A stretch of DNA of 64,000 nucleotides, taken from the NCBI GenBank assembly GCA_000002445.1, contig AE017150.2:576001-640000 (forward strand). The letters are read 5' to 3'. The DNA is from Trypanosoma brucei. Taxonomy: Eukaryota. A program made the position numbers. This document shows positions 34,601 through 37,600 of the stretch, in pieces; positions within the stretch are counted from its first letter, which is position 1; each line of letters begins with the position of its first letter.

Positions 34601-37600
34601 GAGTGGGATGCGTTGCTGGCTTCTAGCATTACTGAATTTCAGGTGGAGGTTATGGAAATCGGAAAGGGTAAGAGTTACTAGCATTTTTTTCTTTTCTTCC
34701 TAAATGGACATTTAACTTTTTTTCCTCTTTTTTTTACGGTGGTATATCCTCTTTTTTTGTCACCCAATGGTTAAATTACCATGCGGTGACAAAACAAAGA
34801 CTCGGTTTTTAAACTCATTGAGAATAATAGAGTACGCATACCTAAAAAAAAGTGTATGCGGAGTGGATTATGTATTCTCATGAAATCAATCATTCAAATA
34901 TCTAATGCAAAGCGCAAACAACTGTACGACGGAAATTTTTTTAATTTTTGCGGTGCCTCTATAAATAACTCCTTCACTAACCGTTATTGCTCGACGTAGC
35001 ATCACTAGGTAAACCTTTACGCGTTCGTCTGCTTTGAATGCACTAGTTCATACAGCTCCCTAAAGTCTAACTCCGTCTCAACTTTTTCCCCACTCTTACA
35101 CATCGAATAGTCTCCGACAAAATACAAACCCTTGGGAGTCGCACCTCCACAAGAAATTAGTTATAGCTAGCCTTCCCCCACTGCCCACATTATGCATCCT
35201 TATCAATTGCCTCGGCTGATAACTTAAATTGACAGCGTAATTGAACTATCCGTCTCTGTTATGAGTCCCTGATGGCAGTACTCGTGGTTTCCATAGGAGG
35301 GGGAACGATCCGTCCGAATAATCCAAATTTGAGGGGTTAAAGGGTAGTAAAATACATTACTTTCATCAGATGAAGAACACACGAAATGACTTAAGGGTGC
35401 GAGAGTGGCATTCTGAACCTGTAAAATGTGTACCTTGCCTGCTTCTTCATGCCATGAAATGTAAATATATCCCAAACATTCAAGTCTGCTTTGTCGATAT
35501 ATTTGTCACAGAAGTGTAGTAGGTTACATGGTCTGTGTGAACTAGGGATCGAAAGCTCTCAGGTGGCAATGCTTGGCGGTGTAATGTATGCATGGCCGCA
35601 GTGTTGAATACCATTCCTTATATCTACTCGATGAGTTCAGTTTTGGCGAATTAGCCTATGATTGTGTCTTCGATGTTTTATCTCGGGGTTTAGTAGAGGT
35701 GGACACATATAAAGTTATGGGGGCGGCTGTTACCTGTGGGAGTCCTATTATAAAGTGGTAAGTACTGTGCCTCTTTTATGGGTGCTGTCAGACAAGCATT
35801 TTGTTTTGTGTGGAGACGGACTTTCCTCCATTTGCTTTGGAGGGACGATTTAAGTCACTGCTGGTTTCTGTTGTGCAATAGAAACGCGAGAGGCAAAGTG
35901 TGTCTGTTGAAGTGTGATTATTCTTTTTGGGTGCGTCTTCATTACCGGGATGTTGGGAATGCTGATTACTGCTGTTTCCACTGTAGTGAGGCGAATAAAC
36001 AGCTGCAAGTGTGTTTCGGATCCCTTTAGTTTTTAGTAAATCCTTTTCCGAATATGTGAATACCAAGCATACACATACGCAATAATTTCCAAGCTAATAT
36101 TTGTAACTCTGGATCTTTCACAACTTGGGTATGTATGTAACATTGTAAATTGCTTTGCTTCTTTTGCAAAATAATTTGTGGAAGAGTTCTTGATAAGACT
36201 GAAAGGTGGAATAATATAAAAAAATGATGAAGTATTTGCTGGTATTTGCAATTATTGCCACAAGAATCCCTGTGTTGTTGGCGACTAATGGTGGAGATAA
36301 ACATGTGAAAGCTAACAAGAAGTTGACGAAAGAGGGAGCAGCGGCACTCTGTAAAATGAAGCATCTTGCTGATAAAGTTGCAGAGGAGAGATCACAAGAG
36401 TTGAAGGATAGAACTCAAATTTTTGCTGGTTATATAGAGTTCGAGTTGTATAGAATAGATTATTGGTTGGAAAAGCTGAACGGTCCGAAGGGGCGAAAAG
36501 ACGGTTATGCTAAGCTGTCTGACTCTGATATAGAAAAAGTAAAGGAGATATTCAACAAGGCAAAAGATGGAATAGCTAAGCAACTCCCTGAGGCAAAGAA
36601 AGCCGGTGAGGAAGCTGAAAAACTACACACCGAAGTGAAGAAGGCCGCGGCGAATGCACGTGGAGTGAGGTTAAGTGAAGGAACGAACTCTAGTGGCCTT
36701 TACAGGATTTTGGATTGGTATTGTTTTAAAGAAGGGGAGAATGCGGGTAAGAGCGACAACTGTGATGGCGTCAAGTTCAGCGTGCATTACGAAACGCACA
36801 GAAGAAGGAATGTTATTGACTGCAGCAGCACCGGCTATGAGGAGAATTATGATTGGTCTGCGAACGCGCTGCAGGTGGCCCTAAATAGCTGGGAGAATGT
36901 GAAGCCAAAAAAATTGGAGTCAGCCGGGTCGGACATGAATTGCAACATCGGCCAATCTTCCGAGAGCCATCCATGCACCATGACAGAGGAGTGGCAGACT
37001 CCATACAAGGAAACTGTCGAAAAGCTAAGGGAACTTGAGGATGCGTACCAAAGGGGAAAGAAGGCTCATGATGCTATGTTGGGTTACGCTAATACCGCAT
37101 ATGCTGTGAACACGAAAGTGGAACAGGAAAAGCCGCTGACAGAGGTGATAGCGGCAGCCAAGGAAGCAGGGAAAAAGGGCGCGAAAATTATAATACCCGC
37201 AGCTGCCCCAGCAACACCGACTAACAGCACAAAAAATGAAGATAGTGCTTCAACCGAGCATGTTGATAGAGGGATTGCAACAAATGAAACACAGGTGGAA
37301 GTTGGTATTGATGCTGACTTTGATAGTCTCCTAGATGCCACAGAGGCTGCAGAGGTAACGCGTAGACATCAGAGAACAGCAATGATTATATTGGCAGTCC
37401 TTGTACCTGCCATTATTCTTGTGGTTACGGCCGTTGCATTCTTCATAATGGTGAAACGAAGGAGGAATAGCTCCCAGGATGTGGACACCGGAAAAGCGGA
37501 GGGTGGGGTTTCTAGCGTAAAAGTAGTAATGTAGACTCACCTTCACTCTTGGACAAATGTGCAGTTTTTTTTTTTAAACAGCGAGTGTAAATAAGGAAAA

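What the first reader, a model, noticed from the sequence alone, without database searches (positions are those of the whole stretch)
37465..37480. Loss of a cytoplasmic-tail lysine (K-to-Q) in ISG copies 5 and 6
Copies 1-4 end …KRRRNSSKDVDTGKAEGGVSSVKVVM. Copies 5 (37465-37480) and 6 (41003-41018) read …NSSQDVDTGK… through a single A-to-C change (aag to cag). In ISG65 the cytoplasmic lysines are reported ubiquitin acceptor sites that drive endocytic turnover. Removing one of the three could create isoforms with altered surface half-life inside the same array.
Basis: partly seen in the sequence, partly recalled or inferred. Interest (0 to 1): 0.5.

Follow-up and report, generated by a model that had tools for sequence, protein, structure and literature searches.

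The report
ISG65 tail lysine/glutamine paralogue variant
The single-base K/Q difference in the tails of the six tandem ISG65 surface-protein genes of Trypanosoma brucei is real. It is an ordinary, already tabulated paralogue polymorphism at a non-conserved position, more likely an extra lysine gained by copies 1-4 than one lost by copies 5-6, and it leaves the reported ubiquitin-acceptor lysines untouched.

Summary
The window is the ISG65 tandem array of T. brucei brucei TREU927 chromosome 2 (six CDS, 22050-41079). It is not a sequencing error, because both alleles occur in an independent T. equiperdum array.

- Copies 1-4 have four tail lysines and copies 5-6 three, as already tabulated per gene in Zoltner et al. 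2015, Table 1.
- K411, K424 and K433 are invariant in 21/21 ISG65 tails. Position 418 is the most variable tail site (K5/Q12/H4).
- No gambiense copy, the original ISG65 sequence (Q26712), ISG64 or any T. congolense relative has a lysine there. Q (CAG) is the one-step hub to both K (AAG) and H (CAT). Gain of K in copies 1-4 is therefore more parsimonious than loss.
- A review of Chung et al. 2008 states that ISG65 is ubiquitinated on K3 and K4. That makes the variable residue K2, not a reported acceptor.
- The three-lysine paralogue remained deubiquitinase-sensitive in SILAC data.

Verdict: a real but ordinary variant, of low interest.

The parts
19961..41137 (+). ISG65 tandem array (six units of about 3.54 kb) of T. 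brucei brucei TREU927 chromosome 2
   Evidence: The ATG-to-ATG spacing is 3541-3546 bp. The upstream boundary was found by blastn of 19961-22049 against 23504-25593 (97.8% identity). Copy 6 loses similarity about 55 nt after its stop codon. The proteins are identical to XP_951582-XP_951587.
22050..23360 (+). ISG65 copy 1 (probably Tb927.2.3270), 436 aa, with tail NSSK and 4 tail lysines. The ectodomain is a mosaic of copy-6-type and copy-2-5-type segments.
   Evidence: The K codon AAG is at 23301-23303.
25594..26904 (+). ISG65 copy 2, 436 aa, tail NSSK
   Evidence: AAG is at 26845-26847.
29140..30450 (+). ISG65 copy 3, 436 aa, tail NSSK
   Evidence: AAG is at 30391-30393.
32681..33991 (+). ISG65 copy 4, 436 aa, tail NSSK
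   Evidence: AAG is at 33932-33934.
36224..37534 (+). ISG65 copy 5 (XP_951586.1, probably Tb927.2.3310), 436 aa, with tail NSSQ and 3 tail lysines. It differs from copy 4 at only 4 residues: N66I, K143A, V231L and K418Q.
   Evidence: Pfam PF11727 (ISG65-75) matches with E = 3.8e-100.
37475..37477 (+). Codon 418 of copy 5: CAG (Q) where copies 1-4 have AAG (K)
   Evidence: Between 37165 and 37551 this is the only difference from copies 1, 3 and 4.
39766..41079 (+). ISG65 copy 6 (XP_951587.1, probably Tb927.2.3320), 437 aa, a divergent ectodomain (80% identity to copy 1), tail NSSQ, 3 tail lysines
   Evidence: Positional orthologues in T. b. gambiense and T. equiperdum share the unique downstream flank, and both carry Q.
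41020..41022 (+). Codon 419 of copy 6 (homologous to codon 418 of the other copies): CAG (Q)
   Evidence: A copy-6-specific synonymous ACT lies 12-14 nt downstream (41032-41034).

Best explanation
This is an ordinary paralogue polymorphism in the short, unstructured cytoplasmic tail of the tandemly repeated ISG65 genes. It lies at a non-conserved position (residue 418) between the invariant stop-transfer KRRR and the invariant DVDTGK.

The most likely history is a point mutation CAG to AAG (Q to K) on an NSSQ background. The new allele then spread to four of the six array members by the gene conversion or unequal crossing-over that keeps copies 2-5 about 99-100% identical. Copies 5 and 6 keep the older Q state.

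All six proteins retain the three invariant lysines. These include the two membrane-distal ones (K424, K433) that are reported to carry ubiquitin and to determine half-life. The Q forms are therefore expected to be internalised, ubiquitylated and degraded much like the K forms. K418 ('K2') adds at most a minor or redundant acceptor.

Shown: the sequence states, their distribution among genomes, the invariance of K411/K424/K433, and the mosaic structure of the array. Inferred: the direction of the change, the identification of K418 as 'K2', and functional near-neutrality.
For: -
- Tail conservation across 21 distinct ISG65 tails: K411, K424 and K433 are 21/21. Position 418 is K5/Q12/H4, position 416 is N14/S7, and only positions 432 and 434 vary otherwise.
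- T. b. gambiense has CAG in 8 copies and CAT (H) in 4, with no K. CAG is one step from both AAG and CAT, whereas AAG to CAT needs two steps.
- The T. equiperdum array reads K, K, Q, Q, Q. The original ISG65 sequence Q26712 reads NNSQ.
- The last copy, identified as a positional orthologue by its unique downstream flank, is Q in all three genomes.
- K is seen only on the NSS background, while Q is seen on both NNS and NSS. This fits the stepwise path NNSQ to NSSQ to NSSK without recombination.
- The outgroup alignment puts E (ISG64), A, S or P (T. congolense) and E or S (other T. brucei ISG-like proteins) at the column of residue 418. K424 stays K in ISG64 and in all three T. congolense proteins.
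- Array homogenisation and patchy mosaicism are shown.
- Literature: ISG65 turnover depends on ubiquitylation of cytoplasmic lysines. ISG65 is 'ubiquitinated on residues K3 and K4' (PMC3827541, citing Chung et al. 2008).
- Zoltner et al. 2015, Table 1 lists 4, 4, 4, 3, 3, 4 lysines for Tb927.2.3280, 3290, 3300, 3310, 3320 and 3270. After TbVdu1 RNAi, abundances were 69% (group 3280-3310), 45% (3320) and 62% (3270), and the paper describes the paralogues as decreasing uniformly.
Against: - The direction is parsimony-based only. The root of the T. brucei strain tree is uncertain. For the first array copy alone, a K ancestor and a Q ancestor cost the same number of steps (927 K, T. equiperdum K, gambiense H).
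- NSSQ could instead be a recombinant of NSSK and NNSQ. This would need a conversion breakpoint within 5 nt.
- The 'K3 and K4' statement is second-hand. The primary papers (Chung 2008, Leung 2011) could not be read. The mapping K2 = K418 assumes that their construct had the four-lysine tail numbered from N to C.
- The SILAC data come from MITat 1.2 (427) cells searched against the 927 proteome. The actual tails of the quantified proteins are therefore unknown.
- No experiment has compared natural K418 and Q418 tails directly.
Confidence: 0.72

Rival explanations
1. K418 is a functional ubiquitin acceptor. Copies 5 and 6 lost it (K to Q), giving isoforms with a longer surface half-life within the same array.
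For: ISG65 turnover depends on ubiquitylation of cytoplasmic lysines. Copies 5-6 have one lysine fewer. Copy 5 has nearly the same ectodomain as copies 2-4 (4 residue differences), so a tail-only isoform pair exists naturally.
Against: Position 418 is not lysine in any of the 12 gambiense copies, in Q26712, in ISG64 or in the T. congolense relatives. The reported acceptors are K3 and K4, not K2, and both are retained in every copy. The three-lysine Tb927.2.3320 fell at least as much as the four-lysine paralogues on TbVdu1 knockdown, and the paper describes the paralogues as decreasing uniformly. The direction is more parsimoniously a gain.
Confidence: 0.1
2. Adaptive gain. The Q418K change in copies 1-4, possibly together with N416S (which creates an R-R-N-S motif), adds an acceptor or changes a phospho-regulated sorting signal. 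The amplified copies would then be turned over or recycled faster, which would tune surface density of the receptor or clearance of bound complement C3b.
For: K occurs only on the NSS background and sits in the amplified, homogenised copies in both TREU927 (4 of 6) and T. equiperdum (2 of 5). Positions 416 and 418 are the main variable sites in an otherwise invariant tail.
Against: There is no functional data. Homogenised copies carry hitch-hiking variants by default, and 8 of the 10 variable codons among copies 2-5 are non-synonymous and scattered. Gambiense maintains a 12-copy array without any K418. K3 and K4 are reported to account for the ubiquitylation.
Confidence: 0.13
3. Artefact: a sequencing or assembly error, or collapsed or mixed haplotypes, in a highly repetitive array of the reference genome.
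For: The array units are 99-100% identical, which makes assembly error-prone. TREU927 is diploid, and the reference could mix alleles (own knowledge).
Against: The same C is present in two separate copies with different flanks. Both AAG and CAG occur in an independent T. equiperdum assembly, and CAG occurs in T. b. gambiense and Q26712.
Confidence: 0.03

Closest known systems
ISG65 (65 kDa invariant surface glycoprotein) gene family of T. brucei, Tb927.2.3270-3320; Pfam PF11727 ISG65-75
   Same: The six window proteins are identical in sequence to the deposited TREU927 ISG65 proteins. They match PF11727 (E = 3.8e-100). They have type I topology with a 26-residue lysine-bearing cytoplasmic tail.
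   Different: Nothing differs. This is the reference locus itself. The K/Q difference is part of the published annotation, and the lysine counts per gene are tabulated in Zoltner et al. 2015.
Ubiquitin-dependent endocytic turnover of ISG65/ISG75 (Chung et al. 2004, 2008; Leung et al. 2011; Zoltner et al. 2015)
   Same: The tails contain the conserved lysines on which this pathway acts. K424 and K433 are invariant, and K424 is conserved as far as ISG64 and T. congolense.
   Different: The variable residue is the second lysine (K2), not the reported acceptors K3 and K4. No published test of the natural K/Q variants was found in the searchable library.
Concerted evolution of trypanosome tandem gene arrays by gene conversion and unequal crossing-over
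   Same: Copies 2-5 are 99-100% identical over whole 3.54 kb units, including intergenic DNA. Copy 1 carries copy-6-type patches. Scattered variants are shared in different combinations between copies.
   Different: Homogenisation is incomplete at codon 418. The NSS serine has reached all six TREU927 copies, but the K only four.

Membership tests
ISG65 (Pfam PF11727, ISG65-75 family) | Significant match of the ectodomain to the ISG65-75 profile above the curated cut-off | tested here: met
   The score is 335.2 bits against a cut-off of 25.1, E = 3.8e-100, covering residues 20-282.
ISG65 (Pfam PF11727, ISG65-75 family) | Identity with annotated ISG65 genes of T. brucei chromosome 2 in a tandem array | tested here: met
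   There are exact matches to XP_951582, XP_951586 and XP_951587. Cluster members XP_951583-XP_951585 come from the same 1,193,948-bp record. The array has six units with a period of about 3.54 kb.
ISG65 (Pfam PF11727, ISG65-75 family) | Type I topology: N-terminal signal sequence, a single C-terminal transmembrane helix, and a short cytoplasmic tail | tested here: inconclusive
   A hydrophobic stretch AMIILAVLVPAIILVVTAVAFFIMV is followed by KRRR and 22 more residues. No topology predictor was run. Zoltner et al. 2015, Table 1 lists the TM at residues 386-410.
Ubiquitin-acceptor lysine of the ISG65 tail | The lysine is conserved among ISG65 paralogues, strains and related ISGs | tested here: not met
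   Position 418 is K in 5, Q in 12 and H in 4 of 21 tails. ISG64 and T. congolense relatives have E, A, S or P there. By contrast K424 and K433 are 21/21.
Ubiquitin-acceptor lysine of the ISG65 tail | Experimentally shown to carry ubiquitin or to control half-life | not testable with these tools
   A secondary source says K3 and K4 are the ubiquitinated residues. In a four-lysine tail K418 would be K2. The primary papers are not held.

The most novel reading that the evidence does not exclude
K418 (with S416) marks a derived, amplified ISG65 tail class. An extra juxtamembrane-distal lysine and an RRxS motif would give a measurably different ubiquitylation or recycling rate. One array would then encode receptor isoforms with distinct surface residence times, which is relevant to how fast ISG65-bound complement C3b is cleared.
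Probability: 0.1. Interest if true: 0.4.

Novelty: already known. Interest (0 to 1): 0.12.

Why it matters
If the K/Q difference changed turnover, one tandem array would encode surface-receptor isoforms with different residence times. This would bear on ISG65's role at the host-parasite interface. The evidence instead points to a routine variant at a non-conserved tail position. It is already visible in the reference annotation and in a published table of lysine counts, and the functionally implicated lysines are untouched.

Tried and rejected
- Primary papers on ISG65 lysine mutagenesis (Chung 2004, Chung 2008, Leung 2011) were requested by DOI, PMC id and PubMed id. None is held. I therefore relied on a review's summary and on Zoltner et al. 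2015.
- Literature searches for site-level ubiquitin proteomics, phosphoproteomics or paralogue-specific discussion of ISG65 tails gave nothing relevant. 'Three lysine' hits were unrelated to the ISG65 tail, except for one remark in Zoltner et al. 2015.
- A second homology search with only the C-terminal 100 aa was meant to sample tails from more strains. It returned no hits, which I take to be a limitation of the tool's word index.
- Tandem Repeats Finder cannot see a 3.5 kb period, so the array limits were set by blastn.
- Sequencing error was considered and rejected, because both alleles recur in independent genomes.
- A copy-6-to-copy-5 conversion was considered as the source of Q in copy 5. 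It is possible only with a tract of at most about 58 nt (between about 37430 and 37487), because the flanking copy-6-specific variants are absent from copy 5. It is not distinguishable from retention of an older NSSQ state.
- The ISG64 codon state was considered as an outgroup to polarise K against Q. E (probably GAG) is one step from both, so it says only that lysine is not ancestral at this column.

Full report
**What is there.** The window holds six tandem ORFs of 436-437 aa on the + strand, at 22050-23360, 25594-26904, 29140-30450, 32681-33991, 36224-37534 and 39766-41079. Their spacing is 3541-3546 bp. They match Pfam PF11727 (ISG65-75) with E = 3.8e-100. They are identical in sequence to the deposited ISG65 proteins XP_951582-XP_951587 of Trypanosoma brucei brucei TREU927, on a 1,193,948-bp record. 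The window is therefore the chromosome 2 ISG65 array. The locus tags Tb927.2.3270-3320 are inferred from gene order, length and lysine counts. By blastn the repeated block runs from 19961 to about 41137.

**Check of the observation.** The alignment of the six proteins and the codon read-out confirm the finding.
- Copies 1-4 end KRRRNSSKDVDTGKAEGGVSSVKVVM. Copies 5 and 6 end KRRRNSSQDVDTGKAEGGVSSVKVVM.
- The codon is AAG at 23301, 26845, 30391 and 33932. It is CAG at 37475-37477 and 41020-41022.
The interval given for copy 6 (41003-41018) ends 2 nt before it.
- The tail has four lysines in copies 1-4 (K411, K418, K424, K433) and three in copies 5-6. 'One of the three' holds only if the juxtamembrane K411 is ignored.

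**Real or error?** Both alleles recur elsewhere.
- The array in an independent T. equiperdum assembly (GCA_003543875.1) reads AGC-TCC-AAG (NSSK) in two copies and AAC-TCC-CAG (NNSQ) in three.
- T. b. gambiense DAL972 has AAC-TCC-CAG (NNSQ) in eight copies and AAC-TCC-CAT (NNSH) in four, and has no K.
- The original ISG65 sequence Q26712 reads NNSQ.
- A sequencing error is therefore very unlikely.
- The change is not statistically remarkable. Among the near-identical copies 2-5 there are 10 variable codons, 8 of them non-synonymous, and K418Q is one of these.

**Which state is derived?**
- Across 21 distinct ISG65 tails, K411, K424 and K433 are invariant. Position 418 is the most variable tail site (K5, Q12, H4), followed by 416 (N14, S7).
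- CAG (Q) is one mutational step from both AAG (K) and CAT (H). K to H needs two steps.
- K is found only on the NSS background, while Q is found on both NNS and NSS. All observed haplotypes therefore fit a recombination-free path NNSQ to NSSQ to NSSK.
- The last array copy can be identified as a positional orthologue by its unique downstream flank. It carries Q in TREU927, gambiense and T. equiperdum.
- A full-length search of 1.84 billion representatives recovered ISG64 and T. congolense relatives. In a MAFFT alignment the column of residue 418 is E in ISG64 and A, S or P in T. congolense. K424 is conserved as K in all of them.
- Together this favours a gain of a fourth lysine in the amplified copies 1-4 rather than a loss in copies 5-6.
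- This is a parsimony argument and not proof. For the first array copy alone, K-ancestral and Q-ancestral cost the same, and NSSQ could in principle be a recombinant.

**How the pattern arose.** Copies 2-5 are 98-100% identical in 200-nt windows across nearly the whole 3.54 kb unit. Copy 1 is identical to them except for two patches that match copy 6. Scattered variants are shared in different combinations between copies. This is the usual signature of concerted evolution by gene conversion and unequal crossing-over. Between 37165 and 37551 copy 5 differs from copies 1, 3 and 4 only at 37475. If the C came from copy 6, the tract would be at most about 58 nt. Retention of an older NSSQ state is equally possible.

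**Functional reading.** The general premise is sound. Internalisation and lysosomal degradation of ISG65 depend on ubiquitylation of cytoplasmic lysines. Three points go against the specific hypothesis.
- Rico et al. 2013 (PMC3827541) summarise Chung et al. [quoted passage not shown] A K4 implies a four-lysine tail, which is the K418 form. K418 is then K2, and the acceptors are K424 and K433. Both are present in every copy.
- Zoltner et al. 2015 (PMC4619645), Table 1 already lists the lysine counts per gene: 4 for Tb927.2.3270-3300 and 3 for Tb927.2.3310 and 3320. After knockdown of the deubiquitinase TbVdu1, abundance was 69% (group 3280-3310), 45% (3320) and 62% (3270). The authors comment that the ISG65 paralogues decreased uniformly. 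The three-lysine paralogue is therefore at least as sensitive to the deubiquitinase.
- Gambiense maintains a large ISG65 array without any K418.

Caveats apply. The primary mutagenesis papers could not be read. The SILAC cells were MITat 1.2 (427) searched against the 927 proteome, so paralogue identities are approximate.

**Comparison with what is known, and verdict.** The object is the reference ISG65 locus itself. The K/Q difference is part of the published annotation and of a published table. The mechanism that generates it (point mutation plus concerted evolution) and the pathway it might touch (ubiquitin-dependent ISG turnover) are both established. I rate the novelty as 'already known' and the interest as low. 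The residual novel possibility is that the derived NSSK tail, with its extra lysine and its R-R-N-S motif, modulates turnover or recycling. It is cheap to test with matched tail reporters, and I give it about 10%.

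Noticed in passing
window codon 416 of each copy, e.g. 37469-37471 (copy 5) and 41014-41016 (copy 6); L001/L002, L003/L004 for comparison: All six TREU927 tails read RRRNSS (AGC). All 12 T. b. gambiense copies, Q26712 and 3 of 5 T. equiperdum copies read RRRNNS (AAC). N416S creates an R-R-N-S (RRxS, basophilic-kinase-type) motif two residues upstream of K/Q418. K418 occurs only together with S416.
   Followed up: partly
window 22050-23360 (copy 1), especially 22098-22140 and 22475-22645: Copy 1 is a mosaic. Codons about 17-31 and about 143-198 match the divergent copy 6 type, and the rest is identical to copies 2-5. These are clear gene-conversion patches within the ectodomain.
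   Followed up: partly
window 39766-41137; L004 10001-11314; L002 around 13.5-15.0 kb: The last array copy has a divergent ectodomain and a unique downstream flank, conserved in position in TREU927, T. b. gambiense and T. equiperdum. In TREU927 it has picked up neighbour-type bases at two tail sites (S416, V432) while keeping its own synonymous ACT between them. This suggests patchy conversion.
   Followed up: partly
window 42112-43445: A convergent strand switch lies immediately downstream of the ISG65 array. Plus-strand ORFs run up to 42112 (a 163-aa ORF that is also called in gambiense and T. equiperdum), and minus-strand ORFs run from about 43445 onwards. There are no tRNA genes anywhere in the window.
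   Followed up: no
L001 10871-11248, L004 433-810 and 8080-8457 (equivalent to about 310 nt downstream of each ISG65 stop in the window): A 125-aa ORF without Pfam hits is called downstream of several ISG65 copies in the gambiense and T. equiperdum annotations. It lies in the repeated intergenic or 3'UTR region and may be a spurious call.
   Followed up: no
window 69-1457, 3281-4513, 9354-10865, 11698-14709, 47669-48802(-), 59582-60787(-): The flanking genes are ordinary housekeeping types. They are a ClpB-like AAA ATPase C-terminal part, a fatty acid desaturase, a Gar1/Naf1-domain protein, a PPR protein, a putative glycosyltransferase (weak Galactosyl_T match) and a PWWP/TFIIS-like protein.
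   Followed up: partly
protein cluster of P0001 (database, not the window): The 90% cluster that contains ISG65 also lists unrelated 44-53 aa metagenome peptides (P0010-P0018). Their sequence is not encoded anywhere in the window, so this is probably a clustering artefact.
   Followed up: yes
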